Below are positions 19,032-33,503 of a stretch of DNA of 64,000 bases, one piece after another. The position numbers and the translations under genes were made by a program. The notes beneath the pieces are model-generated. The model saw nothing but the letters and a program-made list of their open reading frames with translations, was not told the origin of the DNA and did no database searches. The stretch is from a virus (taxonomy: Duplodnaviria; Heunggongvirae; Uroviricota; Caudoviricetes), in IMG/VR virus record IMGVR_UViG_3300015207_000448; one strand, given 5' to 3'. The first letter of the stretch is position 1; the number at the start of each line of letters is the position of its first letter.

Positions 19032-19823
19032 TTGTTTCAAATGAAAATCAAACGATTCAAGAAATTCAAAAATGGTATTGTTTATGCCCTTGCCCTGGAT
19101 GATGGAAGACTTATCGAAACCACCGATACATTCCTTCCTTTCTACACAAAGGATGCAATCGGGCGTAAGCAGAACAAACTCGACAATTCAAATCTCGGTG
19201 ATCGCACAGAGCGTTGGATGATAGGTGTATCAACTATGAGCGGATGTCCAGTTCATTGCAAGTTTTGCGCAACTGGAAATATGAAAGGTTGGCGCAATCT
19301 TACCGCTGATGAGATTGTCAGTCAAGTCATGTTTGCTATCGAACAGGCGGGTGCAGACCCGAATGAAGCAAAGGAGTTCAAGATTAACTATACTCGTATG
19401 GGCGAGCCTTTCCTTAATATCGAAAACGTCAAGGAGGCTATCCGCAGAATCACGGAGATTTACCCTAACACCCATCACTATGTCTCAACCATAGGTGTCA
19501 AAGACAGCGATTTTTCTTTTGTCAAGGGCAATGTCACACTCCAAATAAGTCTTCATTCGTTTGATGAGGCGCACCGAGACTGGCTGATTCCTTTCAAGAA
19601 GAAAATGAGTATTGAAGAACTCGGTCAGATTCGTACAGAGAGCAATCTCAAAACAACCATCAATCTTACTCTGGTGGAAGAAAGCGACTTTGACGCTGAC
19701 AAGCTACGTCAATACTTCGACCCGCGACACTTCTTTGTCAAGTTGTCTCCAATCAACCCTAACGAGGTTTCTGATGGGAACAATCTTGGCAAAGGTATAA
19801 TCGAGGGTGTAAACCTCGTATAA
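19032..19823 (+). CDS. Radical SAM protein related to RlmN/Cfr, short form
   Basis: MSGCPVHCKFCATG matches the RlmN/Cfr CxxxCxFCATG cluster; 263 aa is shorter than canonical RlmN. Confidence 0.55.
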   Translation: MFQMKIKRFKKFKNGIVYALALDDGRLIETTDTFLPFYTKDAIGRKQNKLDNSNLGDRTERWMIGVSTMSGCPVHCKFCATGNMKGWRNLTADEIVSQVMFAIEQAGADPNEAKEFKINYTRMGEPFLNIENVKEAIRRITEIYPNTHHYVSTIGVKDSDFSFVKGNVTLQISLHSFDEAHRDWLIPFKKKMSIEELGQIRTESNLKTTINLTLVEESDFDADKLRQYFDPRHFFVKLSPINPNEVSDGNNLGKGIIEGVNLV

Positions 19824-19987
19824 CACAATGTTTCATTATTAAAACAGAAAGGAGGACACTATGGAAGCTATCAAACGCTCTTTGGAAAGCATGGGCTACA
19901 GTTATGCGGTAGCCATTGCCACTCAGTCAGAGATTGAGAATGGCGCTGCTTGTGGACAGCTTGCTATTATCTGCGAGTAATCAGTTG

Positions 19988-20036
19988 GACGGAGGTGGAT
20001 AGAGACACCACCTTCTACCACCTCCGTCTTATTTCT
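19988..20036 (+). terminator. Rho-independent terminator
   Basis: gacggaggtgg ... ccacctccgtc followed by ttatttct. Confidence 0.55.
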
Positions 20037-20050
20037 AACAATCAACAAAT

Positions 20051-20260
20051 ATGGGCAAAACATTAAAACAGAAAGTGTACCACATCCTGTTCAACAAGGA
20101 TGGCAAAATGAACCTCAAAGTACCTCGGAAATTGCGTTGGAGCTATTTCAACAAGCTGCGCCGACATGATTTCGATCGAGACTTAGAGCGTGCAGAACTG
20201 GTAGATAAGCGAGACAAGGCGAGTCTGAAAGAAATGCGACAGCAAATCAATGATATATAA
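20051..20260 (+). CDS. Small basic protein
   Basis: ORF track; K/R-rich. Confidence 0.3.
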   Translation: MGKTLKQKVYHILFNKDGKMNLKVPRKLRWSYFNKLRRHDFDRDLERAELVDKRDKASLKEMRQQINDI

Positions 20261-20270
20261 GTAAGAAACT

Positions 20271-21479
20271 ATGAAAGTATTTCACAACATAATCGGTCAG
20301 GAGGTGAAGATTTTCGGGGATATACTCGAAGACGAAGCTCTGGCTCAAATACAGCGATTGGCTGATTTCAAGCCATACCAGAACTCGCATATCCGAATTA
20401 TGCCGGATGTCCACGCCGGTAAGGGTTGTACTATCGGTACGACTCTTGTATTGGATGACGCGGTTACACCCAACCTTGTAGGCGTTGACATCGGTTGCGG
20501 CATGTTCGTGGTTCCTCTTGGAAATGCAGAGATTGACCTTCCTTTGTTGGATCAAATCGTCAACGAAAAGATTCCCTCTGGATGCCACATTCACCCCAGT
20601 CCAATTGCACAATTCCCTATGTTAGAAAACTTAAAGTGCATCAAAGCAATTGACACTTATAAGGCATATTGTGCGTTAGGTTCTCTTGGTGGCGGTAATC
20701 ATTTCATTGAGCTGAATGAAGATGCAGAGGGTGGCAAGTTTCTTGTAATCCACTCAGGCAGCCGAAATCTCGGAGTGCGTGTATGTCAGTTCTATCAGAA
20801 GATTGCAGAAGAGCTGTGTCGCCAAGGATATGTGGACAGAAACGAAATTATTCAGCGATTAAAGGCTGAAGGTCGATCGCAGGAAATCCAGACAGAGTTA
20901 CAAAAGCTCAAGTCTAAAAATGAGCCAGTTCCCGATGGCTTGGCATATATCACTGGAGAAGTCAAGGATGACTATCTGCATGATATGTATATCGCTCAGG
21001 ATTATGCAAGGTTGAATCGCGAAACAATCGCCTACTTGATTTTGCAAGAACTGGGATTGAACTCTTGTATTGCCGCCAATGGGTTCCATACAGTTCATAA
21101 CTATATTGATACCAACGATAATGGTACAATATTACGCAAGGGTGCTGTCCGAGCCAACATGGGTGAAATGCTCATTATTCCAATGAATATGCGAGACGGT
21201 TCACTAATCTGTATCGGTAAGGGTAATCCAGACTGGAATTATTCCGCACCTCACGGAGCCGGTCGCTTGATGTCTCGTAAGAAGGCCAAGGAATCACTAT
21301 CTCTTGAAGAATTTGCAGATAATATGAAGGATGTATATTCGTCATCAGTCTGCGCTTTTACTCTTGATGAGGCTCCGATGGCATATAAGCCGATGCAAAG
21401 CATTGTGGATGCCATTCAAGAGACCGTTGATATTCAAAATATTATTCGTCCAATCTATAATTTCAAAGCTAAGGAATGA
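20271..21479 (+). CDS. rtcB: RtcB-family RNA 3'-phosphate ligase
   Basis: MPDVHAGKGCTIGT, GGGNHF and APHGAGRLMSR motifs; 402 aa. Confidence 0.85.
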   Translation: MKVFHNIIGQEVKIFGDILEDEALAQIQRLADFKPYQNSHIRIMPDVHAGKGCTIGTTLVLDDAVTPNLVGVDIGCGMFVVPLGNAEIDLPLLDQIVNEKIPSGCHIHPSPIAQFPMLENLKCIKAIDTYKAYCALGSLGGGNHFIELNEDAEGGKFLVIHSGSRNLGVRVCQFYQKIAEELCRQGYVDRNEIIQRLKAEGRSQEIQTELQKLKSKNEPVPDGLAYITGEVKDDYLHDMYIAQDYARLNRETIAYLILQELGLNSCIAANGFHTVHNYIDTNDNGTILRKGAVRANMGEMLIIPMNMRDGSLICIGKGNPDWNYSAPHGAGRLMSRKKAKESLSLEEFADNMKDVYSSSVCAFTLDEAPMAYKPMQSIVDAIQETVDIQNIIRPIYNFKAKE

Positions 21480-21760
21480 AAACAATATATAAATATCCAC
21501 TCGAATGGGCCGATGAACAGGCGATTGCGATGCCCAAAGGCGCAAAGATCTTATCTGTTCAGTGGATTAGAGGGCAAGTCTGTATTTATGCGCTTGTAGA
21601 TACTGATGAGAAAACGTGTGAGGCCCATCAGTTTCTCATTATCGGAACTGGACATCTCATCAGACCGAACACAGAACCGGCAGTGCATTACTTTTTAGGC
21701 ACTGTTCATAATGAGGATCAATCTTTAGTGTTCCACATTTTTGAAAAGAAAGAACAATGA
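21476..21760 (+). CDS. Small hypothetical protein
   Basis: ORF track. Confidence 0.3.
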   Translation: MKTIYKYPLEWADEQAIAMPKGAKILSVQWIRGQVCIYALVDTDEKTCEAHQFLIIGTGHLIRPNTEPAVHYFLGTVHNEDQSLVFHIFEKKEQ

Positions 21761-22368
21761 AAACAGGACAAACAATTCTTGTGGGCGCAGACGAAGCACC
21801 GAGCTTTCGCCCAATGAATTTCACCAACCCCAAAGTTGGCGTGATTCTGGCCCGCTTCCAGCCCATTCACAACGGCCACCTTGCCCTCATTGAGAAGGCT
21901 TGTAAAGAGAACGACCATGTACTGATACTCATAGGGTCAGCAGACAAGCTCAATGAACGCAACCCAATTCCGTGGACTATACGTCGTGAGCTGGTGACTG
22001 CGGCCATTGCAGAACGAGGCTTTGTCAATACATCCATCGAAGAACTCCAAGACCTTACTGATGAATCCGACAATAGCCATGATTGGGGTTTCTACCTCTA
22101 TGCTTCAGTGGTTTCCAAGACAAAATCGCCAGAGTTCACCATCTACTACTCTGATGGCTTCGAGATAATCACTTCGTGGTTCCCCGGCTTCCTTCTGAGA
22201 AACTGCGTATCATTATCGTTGCTGGCTCGAAATGCTTGTGAGGCCGGCATTTCTGCGACATCGGTGCGCGACATGATACTTTCAGATTCGCTTCCTGAAA
22301 GTGTGGTGCCAAAGTGTGTGTATGAGAAGCGAGAGTTGATTAAGGCATTTCTTAACGTGTTCAAATGA
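21757..22368 (+). CDS. NadM-type nicotinamide/nicotinate mononucleotide adenylyltransferase-like protein
   Basis: VGVILARFQPIHNGHLALIEKA ... LILIGSADK matches the NadM HxGH nucleotidyltransferase N-terminus (GRFQPFHxGH ... IGSA). Confidence 0.6.
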   Translation: MKTGQTILVGADEAPSFRPMNFTNPKVGVILARFQPIHNGHLALIEKACKENDHVLILIGSADKLNERNPIPWTIRRELVTAAIAERGFVNTSIEELQDLTDESDNSHDWGFYLYASVVSKTKSPEFTIYYSDGFEIITSWFPGFLLRNCVSLSLLARNACEAGISATSVRDMILSDSLPESVVPKCVYEKRELIKAFLNVFK

Positions 22369-22552
22369 AAAGTTCTATCAAAGCGATTAGGGCACAATGC
22401 GTTAATGATGTGGCTAAAAAGTATAAGCGAGACATTGAACGTCTGCAAAAAGAAAATGGAGAGCTAAAGCTCTTACTCGCCAAGTATCGTAACGAAATCT
22501 CGAAGCTCCAACACAGTTTGGAGCTTGAACGTAACCCTCAATTAAAAAGCAA

Positions 22553-22789
22553 ATGAAACCACAAATAATTCTAACAATATCAATCCTGGCAATAGCAATC
22601 CTTTCTGGGTGCGACAGCGATAAGGTACAACGTGTCAAAACCGCTAACGAGACCAAACTGATAGAAATTGACACACTGGACATTCATGGTACAAAGCACG
22701 AAGTTATCTTTTGGTACTGGAACTATAAAGGCGGCATGATGCACAGCCCAGAATGTTGGTGTAAAACAGATAGCACACAATGGAAATAG
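22553..22789 (+). CDS. Small lipoprotein
   Basis: Signal peptide plus lipobox (ILSGC). Confidence 0.4.
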   Translation: MKPQIILTISILAIAILSGCDSDKVQRVKTANETKLIEIDTLDIHGTKHEVIFWYWNYKGGMMHSPECWCKTDSTQWK

Positions 22790-23284
22790 AGTACACCAAA
22801 GAACAAGTTCGGGCCGCAAAACGTGCAGCAAAGGCATTAAAAGAGCTTGCGGACTCTGGGCTTTATCTAATCTGGCACGCTTCTTCTGGATATATATTGC
22901 TATCCATCTTCAGAAGATGTACCGGATAGAGGGTACGGCGATGATGTACTTGTCTGTGGTCATATTCACGAAGGTGGCGACTGGTAAACTGAAATAAACA
23001 AAAAACAATGGAAGATTTAATTAAAGCACTTCTGATATTTCAGAAATATATCAAGCCGGATGATTTGGCATATAAATATCCAACTGCGTGTGAACACGAT
23101 GAGCTGTATGTCAACGTCAACCCCGACATCGTTTCCATTGAGGATAAGAAAGCCTTGTATGCGTTGGGATTCTTTCCGAGCGAATATAGCGGAGACGAAG
23201 ATTACTACACACCGCCAACTGAGCCAGAAATGGAGGGCGACTGTTTCTTGTCATACAAATTTGGAAGTTGAACGAATTGAAGCA

Positions 23285-23677
23285 ATGAAAGCAAAAGTAA
23301 GAGCGACTGGAGAAATCGTGGATGTTTACAATGCACCGCATCACCCAGATGTTTGGTATGGAGCAAGCCTTCTCCCTTATGGCACACGTGAGCTGGAGTT
23401 CATCGCTTATTCTCGATCCTTAACCGATGGTTTGTTGGCTCAATTCTCTGATCAAGAACTTCGTGAAGAGCTGAAGAATCGTGTTGATCTCCGTAAAGCA
23501 GCCCATATTTTCCTCCGTTGTCGTGATTGTAAGCACTGTGGTGAGGGGTGCTGTCATAAGAGTAGCCGTTACAAGACCTCAGTGTGCTTCCTGAAACCCA
23601 AACCACAAGTCGGTCCTGACCGCTATTATGCGACTCTCCTTTCGAGGAAGGCATGTGAAAATTTTGAACCGAAATAA
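23285..23677 (+). CDS. Cys-rich hypothetical protein; paralogue of 38846..39244 (minus strand)
   Basis: Start at the internal Met of ORF 23060..23677; shared KATGEIVDV-N-P--PD-WYGA, RDCK-C-EG, KPKP--G--RYYAT-LS-K-CE-FEPK. Confidence 0.45.
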   Translation: MKAKVRATGEIVDVYNAPHHPDVWYGASLLPYGTRELEFIAYSRSLTDGLLAQFSDQELREELKNRVDLRKAAHIFLRCRDCKHCGEGCCHKSSRYKTSVCFLKPKPQVGPDRYYATLLSRKACENFEPK

Positions 23678-23678
23678 C

Positions 23679-24944
23679 ATGAAATCTATAATAATATACT
23701 CTGGTAAAGGCGGCGTAGGTAAAACTACGGTGACAGCTAATTTGGCCAGATTACTTGCATCGCAAGGCAAAAAAGTGTTCGTGATTGATGCAGACATCAA
23801 TACTCCATCCATGAATACAGAGTTTGATGGTGAGCATCCAACCGACAATATTTGGGTTCACTCCAGTGGTAACATTTTTCAAAAATTTATTTACCTGGAA
23901 AAATCAATGGTAAGAAGGTATTTGGAAGATGCTAAAAAGAAACTTAATAAACTGGATGTGGATTATGTACTGATTGACACACCACCCAGTGTTACAAATA
24001 TCCACATTGAGCTGCTAAAACGATTGAGCGTAAGTTATATTCTCTTTGTTACTCAGCCCACAAAACTTAGTATTGAAGATGTAACTCGCACAATGGATTT
24101 TTTTAGAACGCAATGCGGGAAATTTTGTAAGGCTGGGGTGGTTGAAAACATGTGTTCTAACGCTAATGCACATGAATATTCAATACCCCTTATTGCTCAA
24201 ATTCCATTTCAAAATGGATTAGATACCAGCAACCTTCTTGATAATGCTAAAGATGAATTTCAGAAGATAGCTAATGAGATTTCATCGAGTGGAGAAGTCG
24301 TTCTCACGTCTTTTTCAACAGATGGTGGGTATGATGAAAGCTTTGATGTGATCAGCATCCGAGAAACAATTCTAAAGAATAGTCGCACAATTTACGTCCT
24401 TGAATTGAAATATGACAATGGCGATTGTAAAGAATTAAAACTCCCGGCTTTGAAATTTCTATCATGTCGTACTTGGGCTGCAATTTATGAGTTCATACAA
24501 GAAGAGGAGGCTCAAATGCCATTTGGACATTGGGACAAACGTATGGAAGCGTGCGGCGTAGATAGGGTATCACGTTTAGTCAACGCTTTTGAAGGAGATG
24601 ACAATGCGTTGTTCATGGTCAATAACGCTCCAAGTACAGAAGTTCAGTTAATAACTGGCGAAATCGGTTTATGTTCTCTTTTGACCAACGAAACATCGCA
24701 TTTTGGCATACCAAGAGTCAAATATCAAACGTCAAAGGGAAGCATAACGCTTTTCCCCGATGAAGTGATACCTATCTCAATTAACGAATTACAGTATTAT
24801 CTCAATAACGGCTATACTCCATTATCTGACGGTCGATATATACCAAGTAAAGAAGATTTATCTGTGATATACAATACTTTTGGCGAGAGGGTCGGCTTAA
24901 TGGAAAATTGGGAAGAAGTGTATGATTCATGGGTAAATCCATGA
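23679..24944 (+). CDS. ParA/MinD-family P-loop ATPase with a C-terminal extension of about 170 aa
   Basis: Walker A box IIYSGKGGVGKTTVTANLA, and DADINTPS; 421 aa. Confidence 0.75.
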   Translation: MKSIIIYSGKGGVGKTTVTANLARLLASQGKKVFVIDADINTPSMNTEFDGEHPTDNIWVHSSGNIFQKFIYLEKSMVRRYLEDAKKKLNKLDVDYVLIDTPPSVTNIHIELLKRLSVSYILFVTQPTKLSIEDVTRTMDFFRTQCGKFCKAGVVENMCSNANAHEYSIPLIAQIPFQNGLDTSNLLDNAKDEFQKIANEISSSGEVVLTSFSTDGGYDESFDVISIRETILKNSRTIYVLELKYDNGDCKELKLPALKFLSCRTWAAIYEFIQEEEAQMPFGHWDKRMEACGVDRVSRLVNAFEGDDNALFMVNNAPSTEVQLITGEIGLCSLLTNETSHFGIPRVKYQTSKGSITLFPDEVIPISINELQYYLNNGYTPLSDGRYIPSKEDLSVIYNTFGERVGLMENWEEVYDSWVNP

Positions 24945-24972
24945 CCGCTTGAATTTATAGACAATCGATAAT

Positions 24973-25446
24973 ATGGAACAGGAAGAAAAGAAGCAAATAA
25001 TAGTTCCTTACGATGAATATATGGAACTGAAGCGTAAAGCAGATTCTCATTCAGTGTTCATCACAACTACTATAAAGTTAGATCGTGATGGTAGTTGTGA
25101 TTTGATGATTGAGAGAGCTGACTCAGAATGTGAACGCCAAGAAGATGTTGATAATTGGATGAAATCCTTAATGAGCAAATTCTTCTCTGAGCACAACCAG
25201 CGCATCCGCTATCACCAACAAAGGGCTGAATATTACGAAAACAAGAATTGTGGTCTTTCTCGTATCAATTCTCAGCTTTATGATCAAATCTCACGATTGA
25301 AAGATGAAGTTGCTTCACTGAAAGTCGCTCCTTCAGTTCAACCACAGGAGCCGGAGACAACATCACAACCTAAATGGTATTCGCTTTTGACCTATTTGGG
25401 TTGGGTTATGGCACTTGTTACGCTAATTCTTTGGATAATCAAATAG
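24973..25446 (+). CDS. Tail-anchored coiled-coil membrane protein
   Basis: C-terminal WYSLLTYLGWVMALVTLILWII; heptad-rich centre. Confidence 0.4.
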   Translation: MEQEEKKQIIVPYDEYMELKRKADSHSVFITTTIKLDRDGSCDLMIERADSECERQEDVDNWMKSLMSKFFSEHNQRIRYHQQRAEYYENKNCGLSRINSQLYDQISRLKDEVASLKVAPSVQPQEPETTSQPKWYSLLTYLGWVMALVTLILWIIK

Positions 25447-25456: not shown

Positions 25457-25966
25457 TTGGGCGGCTTAGTAAAACCCAAACTGAACAAGATGAAACAATA
25501 CATCGGAACAAAGTTGGTGTCTGCCACGCCAGCGATTCGCAAAGGTGGCAAAGTTTATTCCCCGACAGATGAAATTCCTAAATCAATGGAGCCGGTCGAG
25601 GAGGGCTACAAAGTAATCTACGAGGGCGGTTATGAGAGCTGGAGTCCAAAAGACGTGTTTGAGAAGGCATATCGCCCTTGTGATGGCATGAACTTCGGAC
25701 TCGCCATTGAAGCTCTTAAACAGGGCAAGTGTGTCACTCGCAAAGGGTGGAATGGCAAAGGAATGTTCCTATGGCTCAAGCCCGGTGCAAACGTCAAAGC
25801 TGAGTGGTGCAAAGACCCCAAACTCTACGACCTCGCAATGCAGAACGGAGGCGAAATTGAAGCGCTCGGCACAATCTGTATGTTTACCGCTCAGAAACAA
25901 ATTCTCAGCGGTTGGCTCGCATCTCAGACAGACATGCTTGCTGAAGACTGGATGATTCTTGAGTGA
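25457..25966 (+). CDS. DUF2829-family protein (Tad2-like sponge candidate) with an N-terminal extension
   Basis: FGLAIEALKQGKCVTRKGWNGKGMFLWL ... WLASQTDMLAEDWMILE matches my recollection of the DUF2829 hallmarks. Confidence 0.5.
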   Translation: MGGLVKPKLNKMKQYIGTKLVSATPAIRKGGKVYSPTDEIPKSMEPVEEGYKVIYEGGYESWSPKDVFEKAYRPCDGMNFGLAIEALKQGKCVTRKGWNGKGMFLWLKPGANVKAEWCKDPKLYDLAMQNGGEIEALGTICMFTAQKQILSGWLASQTDMLAEDWMILE

Positions 25967-27519: not shown

Positions 27520-27700
27520 ACATATTAGAAAAAGTGCCTCACACCTTGTGAAATCGCCAAAATAATCACGTAAGCACGAGGCACGGTGACAGCTCATATA
27601 TCGTGGGCTGCCTAACCGTGCGTGTTTACAGGTGTTTGGCGATACCTACAAGGAAAGCATGGGAGGGCAGTCCACTTTTCTTGTGCCTATGCTGCGAAAC
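27520..27700 (+). other. Candidate structured 5' leader RNA upstream of the membrane-protein genes
   Basis: Long-range pairing ccttgtgaaatcgccaaa / tttggcgatacctacaagg enclosing cacgaggcacggt / accgtgcgtg. Confidence 0.25.
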
Positions 27701-27718
27701 TTATAAAACAAGAAAACA

Positions 27719-28542: not shown

Positions 28543-28543
28543 T

Positions 28544-28945: not shown

Positions 28946-28954
28946 CAACTAACC

Positions 28955-29209
28955 ATGAACAAAGAAAGACGTGAGGAGCTACTGGAGGTCATCCAGTCGC
29001 TTGATGACGCTATAGATAAACTGAATGAAATTCGTGATGATGAACAGGATGCTTTTGACTCTTTGCCGGAAGGATTTCAGTATTCTTCAAGGGGTGAGGC
29101 TATGATAGATGCAGTAAGCACTCTTGAGGGCTTTGGCGAAGAAATTGCTCAAATTAGTGCAAAGATTGAAGCCTTTTCCAAGCCACCAAAGAAAAAGAAG
29201 AAGACATGA
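28955..29209 (+). CDS. Small acidic protein; paralogue of 47666..48070 (minus strand)
   Basis: DAFDSLPEGFQYSSRGEAMIDAV against NRPESFQWSAANDAMTDNV. Confidence 0.4.
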   Translation: MNKERREELLEVIQSLDDAIDKLNEIRDDEQDAFDSLPEGFQYSSRGEAMIDAVSTLEGFGEEIAQISAKIEAFSKPPKKKKKT

Positions 29210-29568
29210 AAAGATTTCAGTTCAGTAATGACGAATATCAGAAATTAAGCACGATCACCGGTATAGCGATGGTGGATCTTCAGAAGCTGGATGCTCAAGG
29301 GCTTTTAGCGAATGAAGTAGCGGTCAAACTGGTTTTTGAATACGAATATCAGTTACAGAAAAAAGAAAATAAGGTGCTTCCAAAACTTGTAATCAGAGCA
29401 ATTGCACGAAAGTATGGTCTTTCTGTTGCACGAGTAAAAAAATACTTGTTCGCAAAGGAAAGTCCAATTTATTATTGCGAGAAATGCCGACAAGAAATTT
29501 CAAGTTTGGAGTTCCGACGCAATAACGGTATCTGCGATCAATGCGTAGTTGAAAGTATTACCCTTTAA
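29206..29568 (+). CDS. Protein with a C-terminal zinc ribbon; paralogue of 46492..46893 (minus strand)
   Basis: CEKCRQEISS ... NGICDQC against CNRCGRRIGK ... KGFCSNC. Confidence 0.4.
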   Translation: MKRFQFSNDEYQKLSTITGIAMVDLQKLDAQGLLANEVAVKLVFEYEYQLQKKENKVLPKLVIRAIARKYGLSVARVKKYLFAKESPIYYCEKCRQEISSLEFRRNNGICDQCVVESITL

Positions 29569-29579
29569 TATTTGATAAT

Positions 29580-29885
29580 ATGAACGCAAGACAAATTGAG
29601 GTGCAAAGCTACTTCAAGCAACAGCACCCTGAAGCGCTCATACTGTATCATCTACCAGGACAATATGTGTTGCTGGGTGAGGATGTAGATCGAGCGTCAA
29701 AATCCTTTCCGACCATTCAAGTGCCGGAGCCTGGTGTGGGCATCCTTCCAGATGACATCACTATACTATCAACATTAGGAGAAGATGGGTCCGAAATACA
29801 GCTCATTTCTTACCGAAATGATGCTGGAACGCTTGATTTTCCTGATGTAAAACGCCTGATTGAAGAAAAAGAGATGGACTATTAA
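29580..29885 (+). CDS. Hypothetical protein
   Basis: ORF track. Confidence 0.3.
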   Translation: MNARQIEVQSYFKQQHPEALILYHLPGQYVLLGEDVDRASKSFPTIQVPEPGVGILPDDITILSTLGEDGSEIQLISYRNDAGTLDFPDVKRLIEEKEMDY

Positions 29886-30068
29886 AAATTTTTTCGTCTT
29901 AACATGAATCAGGAAATACATAATCGTCTTAATATGCTTATATACAGTAGGAAATTATAAGTTTATACCATACATTCAAACTGACAGTAAATACACTGAT
30001 AATCAGTATGTTATGTGAAAATTTTAACACTTTTCCTTGCTGGTTTTAGGCATTTTAGAATTAACTTT

Positions 30069-30114
30069 GTACCACCGGGTCGCACTTTTAGTCGGCTCGG
30101 TGGTACTTTATTTT
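30069..30114 (+). terminator. Hairpin terminator
   Basis: gtaccaccg ... cggtggtac followed by tttatttt. Confidence 0.45.
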
Positions 30115-30144
30115 GAATAATCAATAAAACGCAATTGAATAATC

Positions 30145-30744
30145 ATGGTACAAGAGACCAACAATTCCGAAACCGTCACCAAGACGCCTGTGGAGAAAAT
30201 CCACACGAAGCTTAAATTCATAAAGTCTGAGCGGAATGGAGCGCTCATTAGCTTTGTTTCTCAAAACCCTGTTAACAAAATTGTATGCGGGGTACGTCAA
30301 GACTCTCCTTACCCCAAGAAGATTGTAATCATCGATCGCGAGATTGCGCATAATCTCATTGTAGATATGCTATACGATTGCACTCTCATCCCTATGACTG
30401 AAGTGAAAAATCCCAAGACAGGAGAGATGCACGTTCCCGGCTTCATCGCAATAGAAGCGAATCCGGTTCAGTTCAAAGCAACCATCCAGACTAACTACAT
30501 TCGCGGAGTCAAATATAATGTCGAAGTAAGTTTCGGCAACAAGGTCATCCGCTTTGACCCGTTCCGTGGAGTCAAAGAAACAACCAAATCACTTCCGGCT
30601 TGTCGGGCGGTACTGGAAAAGCGTTGTGACATCCGAGACCTTTTGGATGTTGTGGAGCAGTTCAATATCGCAGCTAACAATCTGCTTGCTCTGATGAAAA
30701 AGGATATGGCTGACATCAACAATAAGCGCAGAGGTAAACGATGA
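30145..30744 (+). CDS. Hypothetical protein encoded immediately upstream of RNase H; paralogue of 45589..46083 (minus strand)
   Basis: Shared KIV--D--IA---I--MLY-CTL-PM and SFGNK-I--DP; its stop overlaps the RNase H start. Confidence 0.45.
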   Translation: MVQETNNSETVTKTPVEKIHTKLKFIKSERNGALISFVSQNPVNKIVCGVRQDSPYPKKIVIIDREIAHNLIVDMLYDCTLIPMTEVKNPKTGEMHVPGFIAIEANPVQFKATIQTNYIRGVKYNVEVSFGNKVIRFDPFRGVKETTKSLPACRAVLEKRCDIRDLLDVVEQFNIAANNLLALMKKDMADINNKRRGKR

Positions 30745-31136
30745 GAAGACCGACAGAGGGCATTGCAACCGACGCGGCTCATTCAATGAAGAATGGGAAG
30801 ACTGAGTATCAAGCAATAAACCTTGCCACCAGAGAACGAATCTTTTACCGTAATCTTGGGAACCAAACTACAAATATCGGTGAATTTCTGGCGGTTGTCG
30901 AAGCAGTCAAATATATCATAGAGAATGATTTTCAGCCTCGTGTGATATTTACAGACTCTATGACGGCAATAGCATGGTTTAAGGCTAAGAAAACATCATC
31001 TACCAAACCTAACAAAGACCTTCAGCGGGCTGAAATGTTTCTTAGAGCTTTGTCAGCAGATGTTGATACCATAGAAGTTATTCACTGGGACAACAAGCGT
31101 TGGGGAGAAACCCCGGCAGACTTCGGTAGAAAATAA
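30741..31136 (+). CDS. rnhA: RNase H (type 1)
   Basis: Catalytic residues in order: ATDAAHS, NIGEFLAVVEA, IFTDS, HWDN. Confidence 0.7.
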   Translation: MRRPTEGIATDAAHSMKNGKTEYQAINLATRERIFYRNLGNQTTNIGEFLAVVEAVKYIIENDFQPRVIFTDSMTAIAWFKAKKTSSTKPNKDLQRAEMFLRALSADVDTIEVIHWDNKRWGETPADFGRK

Positions 31137-31215
31137 ATGTCGGATTTATTCACCTTCGATTGTTCCAATGACTATTCTTTGATGAGACCAATCTCATAAA
31201 CTCAAATTAAACAAT

Positions 31216-31428
31216 ATGGAAGCTATTTTCAACAACCGCCGTGACTCTGTTCTGAAGTCACTTCAGGAGAACCAATCCGAGATCGCAATCTTAAACGCTG
31301 ATATTGAAGCCAAGATTGCTGCCCACAAGAATGAAATCGCAAAGCTCAAGCTCCAGCAGAAAGAGCTGAGGCAGACTAAAATGAAAGGCGGCTGGTTGCT
31401 GTCCTTGCTTATCCGATGGCTCAAGTAA
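31216..31428 (+). CDS. Small coiled-coil protein with a C-terminal TM segment
   Basis: GGWLLSLLIRWLK. Confidence 0.3.
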   Translation: MEAIFNNRRDSVLKSLQENQSEIAILNADIEAKIAAHKNEIAKLKLQQKELRQTKMKGGWLLSLLIRWLK

Positions 31429-31478
31429 CATATAAGCCTCAACGAAAGAATGACAAAATCTAAGTTGAGGCGCCAACA

Positions 31479-31563
31479 GGGTTAATGACGGAATTGGTAG
31501 ACGTGTCGGTCTCAAACACCGATGTTGAAAGACGTCCGGGTTCGACTCCCGGTTAGCCCACCA
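31479..31563 (+). tRNA. tRNA-Leu (CAA), type II with a long variable arm and an encoded CCA
   Basis: Acceptor gggttaa/ttagccc, anticodon loop ctCAAac, T-arm ccggg-ttcgact-cccgg. Confidence 0.7.
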
Positions 31564-31595
31564 AGAGAACATTTACATTTTAATCACCAAACATT

Positions 31596-32420
31596 ATGAA
31601 ACATTTCATTAAACTGTTTCTCGCACTGATTGTGTGCGTTGCAGTCTCCAGCTGTCATGGTGTCCGGCCTGAAGCTGACGAGGAAGCTGTGTTAATCAAA
31701 AAGCCGTGGTTCTTTGGGCATGGCGGTGTTGACTTGGAGCCGGTAAATACTGGCCTCACATGGTGCTTCTGGAGCACATCCTCAGAGTCGTTCAAGATTA
31801 CTCCTGTGCGTTATGAGGAAACCCTCGATGACATCATCTCTAACGAAAACACTCCGCTCGACTTCAAGACGCAGATTATCCTGCGCATTAAGAAAGGTAA
31901 GAGTCCGGTGCTTTTGCAGAACTACGGAGTCAACTGGTATGAGAACAACGTCAAAGAAGTTTACAACAACCTTACTCGACATTATGTCTCCCAGTATTCG
32001 CCATTTGATTTGACCAGTAACCGAGAAGTTGTCGCTCATATTGATTCTTGTGTGAAAGCCGACATGATCCGTTACATTGACCGACTATCTGTGGAGAAAG
32101 AATTTCCCATTGTTGTCGAGAATGTCATTACCGGTCGAGCGATTCCTAATGCAGCGCAGCTGAAGGAGATGAACAACACTGCGGCTCAGATTCAGGCAAA
32201 GCAAACTCAGGAGCGACGATACGAAACGGAGGTTGCACGAGAGCAGGCTGAACGACAACGCGCAGTATCAGATAAAGCCTATCAGCGAGAAATGGGTCTG
32301 ACTGCGGAACAGTTCATCAGTTTGAAAGCATGGGACGTAATCAACTCTAAGCAGGGTGCAAACATTGATGTCCTCTTCGATGGAGGCGCTTCCAGTACCA
32401 TGTGGAATATCAAGCGATGA
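31596..32420 (+). CDS. SPFH/band-7-like lipoprotein
   Basis: Signal peptide plus lipobox (VSSC); central beta-rich domain; C-terminal Ala/Gln/Arg-rich coiled coil. Confidence 0.45.
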   Translation: MKHFIKLFLALIVCVAVSSCHGVRPEADEEAVLIKKPWFFGHGGVDLEPVNTGLTWCFWSTSSESFKITPVRYEETLDDIISNENTPLDFKTQIILRIKKGKSPVLLQNYGVNWYENNVKEVYNNLTRHYVSQYSPFDLTSNREVVAHIDSCVKADMIRYIDRLSVEKEFPIVVENVITGRAIPNAAQLKEMNNTAAQIQAKQTQERRYETEVAREQAERQRAVSDKAYQREMGLTAEQFISLKAWDVINSKQGANIDVLFDGGASSTMWNIKR

Positions 32421-32496
32421 CAGTAATCCGCAATTAGAGATCACTATTAAACAAGAAACCGCAAAGAAGCAATATCCTTTGAGCCTTTGCGGATTT

Positions 32497-32569
32497 GGGG
32501 CCATAGCTCAGTTGGTAGAGCATCTGCTTTGCAAGCAGAAAGTCCGCAGTTCGAGTCTGCGTGGTTCCA
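32497..32569 (+). tRNA. tRNA-Ala (TGC)
   Basis: ggggcca acceptor with a G3-U70 pair, D-arm tagctcagttggtagagc, anticodon loop ttTGCaa, T-arm cgcag-ttcgagt-ctgcg. Confidence 0.75.
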
Positions 32570-32644
32570 CGAAAGGGTGGTGGGAGTTCGAGTCTCCCTG
32601 GAGTTCGCAAGGACTGCATAGTTTAGCGGTAGAACACCCTTTAT
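32570..32644 (+). other. tRNA-like fragments: an isolated T-arm (gggagttcgagtctccc) and an acceptor/D-arm-like segment (gcatagtttagcggtagaaca)
   Basis: No complete cloverleaf can be formed; flanked by intact tRNAs. Confidence 0.3.
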
Positions 32645-32718
32645 GGACTTGTAGCTCAGTTGGTCAGAGCAGCGGCCTCATAAGCCGATGGCCTCAGGTT
32701 CGATTCCTGACTTGTCCA
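32645..32718 (+). tRNA. tRNA-Met/Ile2 (CAT), with an imperfect acceptor stem
   Basis: D-arm tagctcagttggtcagagc, anticodon loop ctCATaa, T-arm tcagg-ttcgatt-cctga; two mismatches in the acceptor stem. Confidence 0.45.
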
Positions 32719-32720
32719 CA

Positions 32721-32791
32721 CATCCTTTGGCCGAGTGGTTAGGCGGCGGTCTGCAAAACCGTACACGCCGGTTCGAGTCCGGCATGGATGT
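32721..32791 (+). tRNA. tRNA-Cys (GCA) candidate
   Basis: D-arm gccgagtggttaggc, anticodon arm gcggt-ctGCAaa-accgt, T-arm gccgg-ttcgagt-ccggc; unusual C1 and one acceptor mismatch. Confidence 0.45.
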
Positions 32792-32796
32792 CTATT

Positions 32797-32869
32797 GGCT
32801 TCGCAGCTCAGTTGGTAGAGCGGTACGCTGTTAACGTAATGGTCGCAGGTTCGAGTCCTGCCGGAGCCG
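32797..32869 (+). tRNA. tRNA-Asn (GTT)
   Basis: Acceptor ggcttcg/cggagcc, D-arm gctcagttggtagagc, anticodon loop ctGTTaa, T-arm gcagg-ttcgagt-cctgc. Confidence 0.7.
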
Positions 32870-32885
32870 CAAATTGATATAGAAT

Positions 32886-33422
32886 ATGAGGAAAAGAACA
32901 GCATACATACGACAATACATTCAAGACCACCTTGACAAGACCAATGCAGAATTGGCTGATGATTTGCAAATGGAGAAGGGCTCGGTTCGGTATCACATCA
33001 GAGCATTAAAATTGCAAGGAGTGCGAAAGACATTGGGTTATTATCCACGTACCCCACATGATGAGTATATCAGAGAGCATTACCCCAACAAGTCTGCTTC
33101 TCTTATCGCTAAAGAAGTCGGAATGACCCCTGGCGGTGTACGATGCGCTGCTTACAGGTTAGGCATTAAACATAACCCAGGCTATGCAAGAGTGCAATGT
33201 AGTCATCGCCAAATTGGAGAAAATTTAACAGGTCAGCGTTTTGGGTATTTGGTAGTCAAGAGGCAATTAGGAACAAACAAGTATGGGCAAATGAGATATG
33301 AATGTTTATGTGATTGCGGAAAGATGACCGAATCGACAGCTGGGAATCTAAAACATGGACATAAAAAGTCTTGTGGCTGCTATCGTAGGCAACTGGCCGG
33401 GTTCAAGCGTAAGAAGCGCTAA
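32886..33422 (+). CDS. Protein with an N-terminal HTH and a C-terminal Cys-rich zinc module (homing-endonuclease-like); the domain is shared with 43821..44468 (minus strand)
   Basis: LTGQRFGYLVVKRQLG ... YECLCDCGK ... GHKKSCGC against LTGQRFNRLVAQKRDP ... WICQCDCGK ... GHTGSCGC. Confidence 0.45.
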   Translation: MRKRTAYIRQYIQDHLDKTNAELADDLQMEKGSVRYHIRALKLQGVRKTLGYYPRTPHDEYIREHYPNKSASLIAKEVGMTPGGVRCAAYRLGIKHNPGYARVQCSHRQIGENLTGQRFGYLVVKRQLGTNKYGQMRYECLCDCGKMTESTAGNLKHGHKKSCGCYRRQLAGFKRKKR

Positions 33423-33431
33423 ATAATATAC

Positions 33432-33503
33432 TGAGGCGTAGTTCAGTGGTAGAACAGTGGATTTTGGTTCCACGGGTCGTCGGTTCGAGCCCGACCGCCT
33501 CCG
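33432..33503 (+). tRNA. tRNA-Gln (TTG)
   Basis: D-arm tagttcagtggtagaac, anticodon arm gtgga-ttTTGgt-tccac, T-arm gtcgg-ttcgagc-ccgac. Confidence 0.7.

What the first reader, a model, noticed from the sequence alone, without database searches (positions are those of the whole stretch)
19032..33503. tRNA-centred module: RtcB ligase, RlmN/Cfr-like radical SAM, five tRNAs, tRNA-like fragments and HNH-like endonucleases
RtcB repairs tRNAs cleaved by host anticodon nucleases, and mobile elements carry their own tRNAs for the same reason. An RlmN/Cfr-like methyltransferase could restore or alter a tRNA or rRNA modification. The HNH-like genes sit exactly at the tRNA cluster, and the cluster contains broken tRNA pieces. 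This points to a counter-defence kit against tRNA-targeting immunity that is being remodelled by homing endonucleases.
Basis: partly seen in the sequence, partly recalled or inferred. Interest (0 to 1): 0.6.

Follow-up and report, generated by a model that had tools for sequence, protein, structure and literature searches.

The report
Phage RtcB, tRNA array, tRNA mimic
This stretch is the variable accessory arm of a temperate gut Bacteroidales phage, carrying an RNA-repair ligase, six tRNA genes and an anti-immunity sponge; that is largely a known kind of arrangement, but it also holds two oddities, a radical SAM enzyme that has lost its methyl-transfer cysteines and a 75-base tRNA-shaped RNA whose two halves are in swapped order.

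Summary
Partly confirmed. RtcB (20271-21479) looks intact, and there are six tRNAs, not five. The radical SAM protein (19041-19823) is closest to RlmN/Cfr in sequence and fold. However, it has only the three cluster cysteines. Both RlmN mechanistic cysteines and the N-terminal RNA-binding domain are missing, so RlmN-type methylation is not supported. In 55 other phage contigs this gene sits among DNA replication genes, never beside RtcB or tRNAs. No HNH domain exists here: one "HNH-like" ORF is an SPFH lipoprotein, and the other is a wHTH protein with a Cys-rich module that elsewhere is fused to HNH. The "broken tRNA pieces" are one coherent element (32570-32644): closing helix, T arm, acceptor hairpin capped by GCAA, D arm. 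This layout matches the tRNA-like module of bacterial YrlA Y RNAs. The block 18155-25356 (radical SAM, RtcB, NMNAT-like, Mrp-like) is absent from a ~97% identical strain. Relatives carry 0-20 tRNAs, some with RtcB and no tRNAs nearby. A Tad2-like sponge borders the block. Best reading: a mosaic accessory, probably counter-defence arm of a BS-TP1-like phage, not one tRNA-centred module. Its function is inferred, not shown.

The parts
18155..25356 (.). Variable accessory block (o18163, radical SAM, RtcB, DUF7352, NMNAT-like, small ORFs, Mrp-like ATPase, part of o24973)
   Evidence: It is absent from strain L099 (ERZ778517 NODE-66, ~97% identical on both flanks), where ~200 nt replace it. It is present but more divergent (~91%) in IMGVR_UViG_3300045988_132205. 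The same slot in L101, L102 and BS-TP1 holds a different gene set.
19041..19823 (+). Radical SAM enzyme with an RlmN/Cfr-type core, lacking both mechanistic cysteines and the N-terminal HhH2 domain
   Evidence: Pfam Radical_SAM 34.4 bits. TIGR00048 RlmN 81 bits against a cut-off of 290. PDB RlmN 6fz6 E 2.7e-13. AlphaFold model pLDDT 93. Foldseek RlmN TM 0.65-0.72, E 1e-11, with the next fold class at E 4e-3. The only Cys residues are the CX3CX2C motif. The C-terminal CGQ tail is present in distant homologues but absent in this clade.
20271..21479 (+). RtcB RNA ligase (joins 3'-phosphate or 2',3'-cyclic phosphate ends to 5'-OH ends)
   Evidence: It is 76.6% identical to gp87 'tRNA splicing ligase' of Bacteroides phage BS-TP1.
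21476..21760 (+). DUF7352 protein, function unknown, start overlapping the RtcB stop
   Evidence: Pfam DUF7352 90.4 bits. PHROG 3848, unknown function.
21757..22368 (+). HIGH-motif nucleotidyltransferase, NadM/NMNAT-like (RFQPIHNGH motif)
   Evidence: Pfam CTP_transf_like 37.5 bits. NCBIfam NMNAT families 53 bits, below their cut-offs. Homologues occupy the same slot in L101 and BS-TP1 gp96.
23628..24944 (+). Mrp/ParA-like P-loop ATPase with a ~230-aa C-terminal domain of unknown type
   Evidence: Pfam ParA/NUBPL 104.5 bits. The Fe-S carrier CXXC motif reads CSNA when aligned to PDB 8zkc.
25457..25966 (+). Tad2-like (DUF2829) protein, a homologue of the Thoeris anti-defence sponge family
   Evidence: Pfam PF11195 83.6 bits against a cut-off of 25. 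A homologue lies directly upstream of RtcB in L101, L102 and BS-TP1 gp86.
30741..31136 (+). RNase H-like protein
   Evidence: Pfam RNase_H 26.3 bits. Conserved upstream of the SPFH gene in relatives.
31479..31563 (+). tRNA-Leu (CAA)
31596..32420 (+). SPFH/Band-7 lipoprotein embedded in the tRNA array (not an HNH protein)
   Evidence: Signal peptide with a lipobox ...VSSC. Conserved in 41 viral contigs at the array position.
32497..32569 (+). tRNA-Ala (UGC), with G3:U70
32570..32644 (+). tRNA-shaped element with swapped halves: closing helix AAAGGGUG/CACCCUUU, T arm GGGAG-UUCGAGU-CUCCC, 7-8 bp acceptor hairpin capped by GCAA, D arm GUUU-AGCGGUA-GAAC
   Evidence: MFE fold -25.9 kcal/mol, z -2.3. 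Rfam YrlA model positions 22-89 of 114, 19.6 bits, E 0.028. Pairing of the two halves as good as seen here occurs in 5 of 5522 chimeras of unrelated tRNA halves. My own scanner found it only in this lineage across 1.41 Mb, with 0 hits in shuffles. It is present in 16 more contigs and is interrupted by an IS in L002.
32645..32719 (+). tRNA-Met (CAU); whether elongator or Ile2-type was not resolved
32721..32792 (+). tRNA-Cys (GCA)
32797..32870 (+). tRNA-Asn (GUU)
32886..33422 (+). wHTH protein with a Cys-rich C-terminal module, a lineage-specific insertion in the array with no nuclease domain
   Evidence: Absent from all other relatives' arrays, where Trp-Pro-Asp-Ser tRNAs fill that interval.
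33432..33504 (+). tRNA-Gln (UUG)
34849..36111 (+). Tyrosine integrase (context: temperate phage)
   Evidence: Pfam Phage_integrase and Phage_int_SAM_5.

Best explanation
The interval is the rightward accessory arm of a ~100-120 kb temperate Bacteroidales phage related to the cultured Bacteroides phage BS-TP1. It runs from the DGR reverse transcriptase to the integrase. It is a mosaic of independently exchangeable genes, not a single machine.

Shown:
(1) An apparently intact RtcB ligase lies in a hot spot whose content differs between relatives and is wholly missing in a ~97% identical strain.
(2) A six-gene tRNA array surrounds a conserved SPFH lipoprotein gene, at a locus where relatives carry 0-20 tRNAs.
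(3) A Tad2-like sponge homologue and an NMNAT-like enzyme flank RtcB.
(4) A radical SAM enzyme of RlmN/Cfr ancestry keeps the SAM/cluster core but has lost both cysteines needed for RlmN-type methyl transfer. Elsewhere it travels with DNA replication genes.
(5) One 75-nt tRNA-shaped element with swapped halves lies between tRNA-Ala and tRNA-Met.

Inferred:
- RtcB re-seals RNAs (most plausibly host or phage tRNAs) cut to 2',3'-cyclic-phosphate and 5'-OH ends by host ribonucleases.
- The tRNAs top up or replace tRNAs during infection.
- The Tad2-like protein soaks up an immune signal.
- The NMNAT-like enzyme helps rebuild NAD+.
- The radical SAM enzyme makes a 5'-deoxyadenosyl radical and acts on an unknown, probably nucleic-acid or nucleotide, substrate by chemistry other than RlmN methylation.
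- The tRNA-shaped element is released from the polycistronic transcript when RNase P and RNase Z trim its neighbours. It is either a young, dispensable tRNA mimic or a relic of a duplicated tRNA.
For: - Family and synteny: the order RT ... Tad2-like, RtcB, Mrp-like, radical SAM, NTase ... RNase H ... integrase is shared with BS-TP1, L101 and L102. BS-TP1 is an induced temperate phage with a DGR (PMC12694917).
- Variable block.
- RtcB integrity. 681 GenBank phage records carry a homologue.
- tRNAs. Array plasticity.
- Tad2-like.
- Radical SAM. More than 2100 homologues of ~260 aa. Invariant cluster and GEP motifs. Context elsewhere is NinG, helicase, AAA_24, VRR-NUC, ThyX and the DnaN clamp.
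- tRNA-shaped element.
- Host is likely Prevotella or another Bacteroidales genus: the transposase of the IS inserted in the sister strain is 92% identical to one in a Prevotella MAG.
Against: - No functional data exist for any gene.
- The same four protein types (RtcB, Mrp-like ATPase, a radical SAM, a HIGH-motif NTase) recur in the slot in BS-TP1, L101 and the window, partly with non-homologous radical SAM enzymes. This could mean a real functional link that I treat as mere synteny.
- The Tad2 and NMNAT assignments rest on domain matches only, and the NMNAT-like protein is below every NCBIfam cut-off.
- Host codon usage and host defence content were not examined.
- The window covers only about half of the genome.
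Confidence: 0.6

Rival explanations
1. One co-adapted kit against tRNA-targeting immunity: spare tRNAs, RtcB to re-ligate cut tRNAs, an RlmN/Cfr-like methylase to restore or alter a tRNA or rRNA modification, and homing endonucleases that keep reshuffling the array.
For: RtcB and tRNAs lie within 11 kb on one strand. The radical SAM's closest relatives are RlmN/Cfr. The array is highly plastic, and one ORF carries a module elsewhere fused to HNH. Homing endonucleases in a phage tRNA region that amplify anti-defence loci are documented for T-even SegB (PMC13096335).
Against: The radical SAM lacks both catalytic cysteines and the RNA-binding N-domain. In 55 other contigs it is never linked to RtcB or tRNAs. 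No HNH or other nuclease domain is present. RtcB and tRNAs occur independently of one another in close relatives.
Confidence: 0.12
2. The 75-nt element is a functional non-coding RNA: a minimal, Ro-independent YrlA-like tRNA mimic. It may act as a decoy or binding platform for tRNA-recognising enzymes, or its adjacent ends may be sealed into a circle. Less likely, it is a permuted pre-tRNA matured by ligation plus RNase P and RNase Z.
For: - It has the full tRNA-like module layout of YrlA (PMC4201824).
- It has a 7-8 bp acceptor hairpin closed by a GNRA tetraloop and a perfect 8-bp closing helix.
- The halves pair far better than chimeras of unrelated tRNAs (0.09%).
- It abuts mature tRNA ends with 0-1 nt spacers, like the genuine tRNAs in the array.
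- It is unchanged in the eight haplotype-1 contigs, while neighbouring tRNAs picked up substitutions.
- M. smegmatis YrlA, which has a 7-bp acceptor stem, is cut by RNase P and receives CCA.
Against: - It is confined to one narrow lineage, with no intact or diverged counterpart in 1.4 Mb of relatives or in the viral and metagenome scans.
- The two substitutions of haplotype 2 weaken helix pairs and are not compensatory.
- One strain carries an IS inside it and one lacks the whole Ala-Asn block.
- YrlA scores 19.6 bits against a gathering score of 69, with no Ro-binding helix, and the model also hits ordinary tRNA dimers.
- No Rsr/TROVE gene was found in the window.
- With a canonical nucleotide 26, no 7-nt anticodon loop can be rebuilt.
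- RNase P and RNase Z leave 5'-P and 3'-OH ends, which RtcB cannot join.
- The strain without RtcB (L099) keeps the element.
Confidence: 0.12
3. The 75-nt element is a non-functional relic. A tRNA was duplicated in tandem and the outer halves were then lost, leaving the 3' half, a 4-5 nt spacer and the 5' half.
For: Arrays at this locus gain and lose tRNAs freely (0-20 genes). Spacers of 1-6 nt are normal in them. Substitution density in the element (2 in 150 nt over two haplotype comparisons) equals that of its surroundings. It tolerates an IS insertion and deletion.
Against: It needs two deletions that each end in the anticodon region and at a mature tRNA border. The spacer happens to be a GNRA tetraloop closed by a C:G pair. 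No intact copy of the parent tRNA was found anywhere.
Confidence: 0.5
4. The tRNAs serve ordinary codon supply for phage genes, and RtcB is a general RNA-repair or housekeeping enzyme unrelated to immunity.
For: This is the classical explanation for phage tRNAs (discussed in PMC10264068). Relatives do well with 0 tRNAs or without RtcB.
Against: Not tested here, because no host genome was available for a codon-usage comparison. The neighbouring Tad2-like gene and the hot-spot behaviour fit an arms-race locus better.
Confidence: 0.3

Closest known systems
Bacteroides phage BS-TP1 (PQ571274; PMC12694917)
   Same: It has the same gene order around the region: RT, DUF2829/Tad2-like, RtcB (76.6% identical), Mrp/ParA-like ATPase, a radical SAM, cytidylyltransferase, RNase H and integrase. 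It is temperate and carries a DGR.
   Different: BS-TP1 has no tRNA genes in the 29 kb examined. Its radical SAM (gp91) is the unrelated type 2, which in the window lies at 42714-43529 on the other strand. It has no RlmN-like gene in this slot.
Phage RNA-repair ligases with phage tRNAs (T4 Pnkp/Rnl1 versus PrrC; RtcB and Rnl in jumbo phages and mycobacteriophages)
   Same: An RNA ligase and self-encoded tRNAs occur in one phage genome, with the accepted idea that the ligase re-seals tRNAs cut by host nucleases (PMC7824862; PMC10264068).
   Different: There is no end-healing kinase/phosphatase, because RtcB joins cyclic-phosphate ends directly (established knowledge of RtcB). The linkage to tRNAs is loose here, and no target nuclease is known.
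RlmN/Cfr class A radical SAM methyltransferases
   Same: It is the best sequence and structure match. It shares the CX3CX2C cluster motif, the GEP and other SAM-binding motifs, and the beta-extension before the barrel.
   Different: The Cys118 equivalent is Gly, the C-terminal tail with Cys355 (CGQ) is absent, and the N-terminal HhH2 domain is absent. It is 260 aa against ~350-400 aa and scores far below all equivalog cut-offs. Its genomic company is DNA replication genes.
YrlA Y RNAs (Rfam RF02553; Chen et al. 2014, PMC4201824)
   Same: The layout is the same: closing helix, then T arm, closed acceptor-like hairpin and D arm, with the RNA ends where the anticodon arm would be. YrlA genes lie in RNA-repair operons with rtcB in Salmonella (PMC7790460).
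   Different: It lacks the Ro60/Rsr-binding helix, scores 19.6 bits against 69, has no Rsr gene in the window, and is embedded between two tRNAs instead of next to rsr.
Circularly permuted tRNA genes (Cyanidioschyzon merolae and others) and two-piece tmRNA genes
   Same: The 3' half precedes the 5' half of one tRNA-like sequence, joined across the acceptor ends by a short linker.
   Different: Those are matured by the eukaryotic/archaeal splicing endonuclease through a circular intermediate (from my own knowledge). Here there is no BHB motif and no clean 7-nt anticodon loop, and ARAGORN reports no permuted tmRNA. I found no report of permuted tRNA genes in phages.
T-even SegB homing endonuclease in the tRNA gene region
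   Same: It is a free-standing mobile-type gene inserted among phage tRNA genes (PMC13096335). ORF 32886-33422 is likewise a lineage-specific insertion in the array.
   Different: SegB is a GIY-YIG nuclease (from my own knowledge). The window protein has DNA-binding modules only, with no nuclease domain.

Membership tests
RtcB RNA ligase | Family profile match over the whole protein | tested here: met
   Pfam PF01139 210.5 bits against a cut-off of 27. PHROG 1075 425 bits. The specific NCBIfam equivalogs are not reached, so the subfamily is undecided.
RtcB RNA ligase | Metal-binding Asp/Cys/His residues and the His nucleophile (HGAGR) | tested here: met
   VDIGCG, GGGNHF, HSGSRNLG and PHGAGR align with the corresponding P. 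horikoshii segments. The residue roles come from published RtcB structures (my own knowledge). His329 lay outside the printed alignment.
RlmN/Cfr radical SAM methyltransferase | CX3CX2C [4Fe-4S]/SAM core and RlmN-type fold | tested here: met
   CPVHCKFC. Foldseek RlmN TM 0.65-0.72, E 1e-11. PDB phmmer E 2.7e-13.
RlmN/Cfr radical SAM methyltransferase | Resolving cysteine upstream of the cluster motif (E. coli Cys118) | tested here: not met
   The aligned residue is Gly (IGVS against VCVS). The protein has no Cys outside the cluster motif.
RlmN/Cfr radical SAM methyltransferase | Methyl-carrying cysteine in the C-terminal tail (E. coli Cys355, CGQ motif) | tested here: not met
   The protein ends before this tail. 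The tail with SNCGQ is present in distant homologues P0178, P0180, P0186, P0188, P0190, P0196, P0205 and P0212, but not in the window clade.
RlmN/Cfr radical SAM methyltransferase | Curated family score and N-terminal RNA-binding domain | tested here: not met
   81 bits against 290 for TIGR00048, and 49-55 bits against 468-550 for the Cfr models. The match covers profile positions 102-297 only.
HNH homing endonuclease | HNH (His-Me finger) nuclease domain | tested here: not met
   No PF01844 or PF13392 hit in 31596-32420 or 32886-33422. The PHROG 374 match is restricted to profile positions 180-254 of 617. Full-length homologues (170-189 aa) carry HTH_24 only.
tRNA | Cloverleaf scoring above the Rfam gathering score and called by ARAGORN | tested here: met
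   Six genes, 53.8-70.2 bits against 29.
YrlA Y RNA | tRNA-like module (T arm, closed acceptor-like stem, D arm between the strands of a helix) | tested here: met
   Aligned to model positions 22-89 with all four helices. The MFE fold agrees.
YrlA Y RNA | Ro60/Rsr-binding helix with the conserved motif, and the family gathering score | tested here: not met
   19.6-20.3 bits against 69. The flanks add nothing to the score.
YrlA Y RNA | Encoded next to an Rsr/TROVE gene | tested here: not met
   None of the 77 window ORFs scanned against Pfam (50-438 aa, including every ORF of 400 aa or more; not every shorter ORF was scanned) has a TROVE domain. The rest of the ~117 kb genome was not examined.
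Circularly permuted tRNA gene | 3' and 5' halves that together rebuild one cloverleaf | tested here: inconclusive
   Acceptor pairing 6/7 plus G-1:C73, and anticodon stem 5/5. Such pairing occurs in 0.09% of chimeras. ARAGORN calls the re-joined sequence a tRNA, but it also-13% of chimeric controls. A 7-nt anticodon loop appears only if nucleotide 26 is dropped.
Circularly permuted tRNA gene | Maturation to an aminoacylatable tRNA | not testable with these tools
   This needs RNA data.
Tad2 (DUF2829) anti-Thoeris sponge | Tad2-like domain above the Pfam cut-off | tested here: met
   83.6 bits against 25 for 25457-25966, and 58.5 bits for 36775-37224. Ligand binding was not tested.
Mrp/ApbC Fe-S cluster carrier | Deviant Walker A P-loop plus the CXXC cluster-bridging motif | tested here: not met
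   The P-loop is present. The CXXC motif reads CSNA against CSNC in PDB 8zkc.
NMN adenylyltransferase (NadM type) | HIGH-type motif and the curated family score | tested here: inconclusive
   The RFQPIHNGH motif is present. The best family hit is 53.4 bits against a cut-off of 127.

The most novel reading that the evidence does not exclude
The 75-nt unit at 32570-32644 is a functional, phage-encoded tRNA mimic with swapped halves. It would be a minimal YrlA-like module that works without Ro60 and is cut out of a tRNA operon by the enzymes that trim its neighbours. Its two ends meet in the 'anticodon' position, so it could be sealed into a nuclease-resistant, tRNA-shaped circle or act as a decoy for tRNA-recognising defence nucleases. 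That would make it the first such element described in a phage tRNA array. Separately, the cysteine-less RlmN-like enzyme family (more than 2000 members, common in crAss-like and other gut phages) may carry out a new radical reaction on nucleic acid.
Probability: 0.12. Interest if true: 0.75.

Novelty: new member of a known kind. Interest (0 to 1): 0.38.

Why it matters
A phage that carries RtcB, its own tRNAs and an immune-signal sponge is a familiar picture, and this example adds a gut Bacteroidales case with a cultured relative (BS-TP1) in which it could be tested.

Two by-products deserve follow-up:
- A very abundant phage radical SAM family is routinely auto-annotated as 'RlmN'. It cannot use the RlmN mechanism, so those annotations, and any inference of RNA methylation or Cfr-like antibiotic resistance, are unsafe.
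- A tRNA-shaped RNA with swapped halves sits inside a tRNA operon. If expressed, it would extend Y-RNA-like tRNA mimicry to phages that have no Ro protein.

Tried and rejected
- Megablast of 19000-34500 against GenBank phages found no match. Protein searches were needed to find BS-TP1 and Kehishuvirus.
- I looked for the parent tRNA of the swapped halves among 77 distinct tRNAs of related arrays. There was no convincing match: best 51 of 70 identities, to an Ala tRNA, and the His tRNAs are not closer.
- Exact-pattern scans for either half found only the same lineage in viral and metagenome collections.
- I considered isotype guesses for the element: His, from G-1:C73 and a junction anticodon AUG; or Arg-ACG, if the break is at 34|35. 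I dropped both because they depend on an arbitrary junction and on omitting nucleotide 26.
- ARAGORN recognition of the re-joined sequence is a weak test, since 9-13% of chimeric controls are also called.
- A link between the element and RtcB is rejected as unsupported. Of the three strains compared for both features, the window has both intact, L099 has the element without RtcB, and the L002/L043 strain has RtcB with the element split by an IS.
- The idea that the Mrp-like ATPase is an Fe-S donor for the radical SAM is weakened by the broken CXXC motif, although in L101 and BS-TP1 its gene overlaps or abuts the type 2 radical SAM gene.
- Literature searches for an RlmN-like radical SAM in phages or crAss-like phages gave nothing relevant. 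The known phage DNA-modifying radical SAM (M6 gp53) is spore-photoproduct-lyase-like, not RlmN-like.
- The simple promoter and terminator scan of the array was uninformative.
- Host codon usage and host anticodon nucleases could not be examined, because no host genome was in hand.

Full report
WHAT THE WINDOW IS

All genes from about 1 to 36 kb are on the + strand, and those from 36 to 64 kb are on the - strand. The + arm holds a reverse transcriptase (13183-14442, RVT_1 75 bits) and ends with a tyrosine integrase (34849-36111).

The SPFH gene of the region recovers 41 related viral contigs of about 95-119 kb. Protein searches identify the cultured temperate phage Bacteroides phage BS-TP1 (111.7 kb, DGR-bearing) as a syntenic relative.

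The window is not identical to any contig found. IMGVR_UViG_3300045988_132205 is 91-99% identical, and ERZ778517 NODE-66 (L099) is about 97% identical. An IS4-family element inserted in the IMG/VR strain has its closest transposase (92%) in a Prevotella MAG, with others in Bacteroidales. The host is therefore probably Prevotella or a related genus; this is an inference.

CHECKING THE OBSERVATION

ARAGORN and Rfam agree on six tRNA genes (Leu-CAA, Ala-UGC, Met-CAU, Cys-GCA, Asn-GUU, Gln-UUG), all on the + strand between 31479 and 33504.

RtcB (20271-21479) is a strong family member, and the motifs that carry its metal ligands and the histidine nucleophile are present.

ORF 31596-32420 is an SPFH/Band-7 lipoprotein that is conserved at this position in all relatives. 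ORF 32886-33422 is a winged-HTH protein. Its Cys-rich C-terminal ~60 residues form a module that elsewhere occurs in ~290-aa proteins, some of which carry HNH or AP2 domains. The window protein and its full-length homologues have no nuclease domain. This ORF is a lineage-specific insertion: it is absent from every other related array, where Trp, Pro, Asp and Ser tRNAs fill that interval.

THE RADICAL SAM PROTEIN

Its closest relatives by sequence are RlmN and Cfr: TIGR00048 E 7e-23 and PDB 6fz6 E 2.7e-13. A confident model (pLDDT 93) matches RlmN structures at TM 0.65-0.72 and E about 1e-11. The next fold classes (MqnE, spore photoproduct lyase) appear only at E about 4e-3.

The defining mechanistic features fail, however. 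The protein contains three cysteines in all, the CX3CX2C cluster ligands. The residue aligned with RlmN Cys118 is glycine. The chain ends before the C-terminal CGQ tail that carries Cys355. An alignment of 39 diverse homologues shows that the tail (SNCGQ) is kept in distant members but is missing from the whole ~260-aa clade to which the window protein belongs. The N-terminal HhH2 domain is also missing, and every curated RlmN or Cfr cut-off is missed by a wide margin.

RlmN and Cfr first methylate Cys355 and resolve the RNA cross-link with Cys118; this is established enzymology and rests on my own knowledge. An enzyme with neither cysteine cannot work that way. The SAM-binding motifs are invariant across the family. 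It is therefore most likely an active radical SAM enzyme with a different reaction.

Its genomic company points away from tRNA. It has more than 2100 homologues. In 55 other viral contigs, at about 80% identity, no other gene of the window lies within 8 kb. The recurrent neighbours there are NinG, a DEAD/ResIII helicase, AAA_24, VRR-NUC, ThyX, an exonuclease and the DnaN clamp. The nearest cultured carrier is a crAss-like Kehishuvirus (69%, annotated 'hypothetical').

My commitment, at low confidence, is that it abstracts a hydrogen atom from a nucleic-acid or nucleotide substrate during phage DNA metabolism.

IS THERE A MODULE?

Strain L099 matches the window on both sides but lacks 18155-25356, which holds the radical SAM, RtcB, DUF7352, the NMNAT-like protein and the Mrp-like ATPase. 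L099 retains a remnant of the first gene of the block, which suggests deletion.

In L101, L102 and BS-TP1 the same slot holds other combinations:
- L101: a Tad2-like gene, RtcB, a small ORF, an Mrp-like ATPase, an unrelated type 2 radical SAM, a second RtcB, two further ORFs and the NTase.
- L102: a Tad2-like gene, an RtcB reading frame split in two, a small ORF and the type 2 radical SAM.
- BS-TP1: DUF2829 (gp86), RtcB (gp87), a ParA/Mrp-like ATPase (gp90), the type 2 radical SAM (gp91) and a cytidylyltransferase (gp96).

The type 2 radical SAM has an ArsS/MoaA/SPASM-like N-terminal half. The window carries its own copy at 42714-43529 on the other arm.

RtcB also lies about 1.9 kb from the SPFH gene in relatives that have no tRNA genes within 6 kb. 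BS-TP1 has none in 29 kb. Arrays at the SPFH locus range from 0 to 20 tRNAs. RtcB, the tRNAs and the RlmN-like gene are thus inherited independently.

What the slot does share is the character of an arms-race locus. A Tad2-like (DUF2829) protein borders it (83.6 bits), and an NMNAT-like enzyme sits inside it. RtcB belongs to a class that phages are thought to use for re-sealing cleaved tRNAs (PMC7824862), and phage tRNAs have been shown or argued to bypass tRNA-cleaving defences (PMC11555353 and PMC10264068).

I therefore accept 'probable counter-defence arm' and reject 'one tRNA-centred kit'. A caveat remains. RtcB, an Mrp-like ATPase, some radical SAM enzyme and a HIGH-motif NTase recur together in three relatives. 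This could hide a functional link that I cannot test. The Mrp-like protein is unlikely to be a classical Fe-S carrier, because its CXXC motif reads CSNA.

THE 'BROKEN tRNA PIECES'

The 75 nt between A73 of tRNA-Ala and G1 of tRNA-Met read: CG-AAAGGGUG-GU-GGGAG-UUCGAGU-CUCCC-UGGAGUU-C-GCAA-G-GACUGCA-UA-GUUU-AGCGGUA-GAAC-ACCCUUU-AU.

In other words, a T arm and a 3' acceptor strand come first. The 5' acceptor strand and D arm follow. The two ends pair with each other.

- The minimum-energy fold gives exactly this: an 8-bp closing helix, the T hairpin, and a 7-8 bp acceptor hairpin whose C73:G-1 pair closes a GCAA (GNRA) tetraloop. The z-score is -2.3.
- The two halves fit each other (acceptor 6/7, anticodon-type stem 5/5) as well as only 5 of 5522 chimeras made from halves of different tRNAs of these phages. 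They therefore come from one tRNA-like sequence.
- ARAGORN calls the re-joined sequence a tRNA, but it does the same for 9-13% of chimeric controls, so that test is weak.
- A purpose-written scanner found the layout only in this lineage across 1.41 Mb of related loci, and never in shuffles.
- The Rfam model of YrlA, the bacterial Y RNA whose effector module mimics tRNA, aligns to 32574-32643 over model positions 22-89, helix for helix (19.6 bits, E 0.028 for the 96 nt searched).
- The Ro60-binding part of that model finds nothing in the flanks, and the gathering score (69) is far off. The same model also weakly hits an ordinary tRNA pair in the window, as its authors warned (PMC4201824).
- No TROVE/Rsr protein is encoded among the window ORFs scanned.

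So the element has the architecture of a YrlA tRNA-like module but is not a member of that family.

A clean 7-nt anticodon loop cannot be rebuilt without dropping nucleotide 26. I therefore do not regard it as a permuted gene for a working tRNA.

Comparative data are thin. There are two haplotypes across 17 contigs that carry it uninterrupted:
- Haplotype 1 (the window and seven other contigs) is invariant.
- Haplotype 2 (L099, L156, L158, L159, L160) has two substitutions that weaken the outer pairs of the closing helix.

In addition, one strain has an IS in the D arm, one strain lacks the whole Ala-to-Asn block, and a more distant relative has Met-Cys-Asn-HTH-Gln without the element. Substitution density equals that of the neighbouring tRNAs.

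The element is therefore young and dispensable in at least some backgrounds. I put 'relic of a tandem tRNA duplication' at about 0.5 and 'functional tRNA mimic' at about 0.12. By analogy with M. smegmatis YrlA, whose 7-bp acceptor stem is cut by RNase P and receives CCA, the hairpin here could be an RNase P substrate; this is inference only.

No link to RtcB is indicated. Of the three strains compared for both features, the window has both intact, L099 has the element without RtcB, and the L002/L043 strain has RtcB with the element split by an IS. RNase P and RNase Z ends are also not RtcB substrates (established knowledge).

COMPARISON AND NOVELTY

Phage RtcB with phage tRNAs is an already described kind, and this is a new gut-phage member with a cultured relative.

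The cysteine-less RlmN-like family appears not to have been discussed in the literature I could search. At least one GenBank phage record names a homologue 'ribosomal RNA large subunit methyltransferase N', and JGI names two homologues as RlmN/23S methyltransferase. These labels should be treated with caution.

I found no report of permuted tRNA genes or Ro-independent YrlA-like modules in phage tRNA arrays.

VERDICT

Overall interest is modest (0.38). The higher-value reading is the tRNA mimic, with probability about 0.12.

Noticed in passing
window 32570-32644: One 75-nt tRNA-shaped element with swapped halves lies here: closing helix, T arm, acceptor hairpin capped by a GCAA tetraloop, D arm. 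It has the same layout as the tRNA-like module of YrlA Y RNAs (Rfam 19.6 bits, E 0.028), but no Ro-binding helix.
   Followed up: yes
L002:7043-8378 (sister strain IMGVR_UViG_3300045988_132205; insertion point corresponds to window ~32636): A 1.3-kb IS4-family insertion sequence (410-aa DDE transposase, inverted ends, ~9-bp target duplication GTAGAACAC) sits inside the D arm of the tRNA-shaped element. Its closest transposase (92%) is in a Prevotella MAG.
   Followed up: yes
window 25457-25966 (+) and 36775-37224 (-): There are two Tad2-like (DUF2829, Thoeris anti-defence 2) proteins. The first borders the variable block, and its homologue lies directly upstream of RtcB in L101, L102 and BS-TP1.
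   Followed up: partly
window 42714-43529 (-): A second, unrelated radical SAM protein (271 aa, cluster motif at the N-terminus) lies here. It is 29% identical to the radical SAM next to the Mrp-like ATPase and RtcB in L101, L102 and BS-TP1. Some crAss-like contigs (L059, L061, L070, L075) carry both radical SAM types 3 kb apart.
   Followed up: partly
window 13183-14442 (+) and 54554-55828 (-); 5975-6829 (+) and 58747-59460 (-): There are two reverse transcriptases and two Lcl_C-domain proteins on opposite arms. Together with the duplicated Tad2-like and RNase H-like genes, the two arms of the window look like mirror-image paralogous sets. This could mean two DGR cassettes, or two related elements head to head.
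   Followed up: no
window 23628-24944: The Mrp/ApbC-like P-loop ATPase has a cluster-bridging CXXC motif that reads CSNA, and a ~230-aa C-terminal domain with no family match. In L101 and BS-TP1 its gene abuts or overlaps the type 2 radical SAM gene.
   Followed up: partly
proteins P0122 (601 aa) and P0081 (438 aa), homologues of window 19041-19823: One homologue has a ~340-aa insertion right at the Fe-S cluster motif, which may be an intein. Another is fused to an HNH_3 domain. The neighbouring NinG in many contigs also carries an intein-like insert.
   Followed up: no
L157 (SRR32020826 contig) and L161/L162: Array variants exist in very close relatives. L157 keeps only Leu and Gln and has lost Ala, the mimic, Met, Cys and Asn. 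L161 has Met-Cys-Asn-HTH-Gln followed within 1.5 kb by bacterial-looking genes (TonB-like, mandelate racemase-like), which may be a prophage-chromosome junction.
   Followed up: no
window 32645-32719: As I parsed it, tRNA-Met has two U-U mismatches in its acceptor stem (5:68 and 6:67). Haplotype 2 strains carry T32650G, which turns one of them into a G-U pair.
   Followed up: no
L101:7995-9203 and 11557-12765; L102:8001-9202: Relative L101 carries two RtcB paralogues (76% and 74% identical to the window protein) 2.3 kb apart. In L102 the RtcB reading frame is split in two.
   Followed up: no
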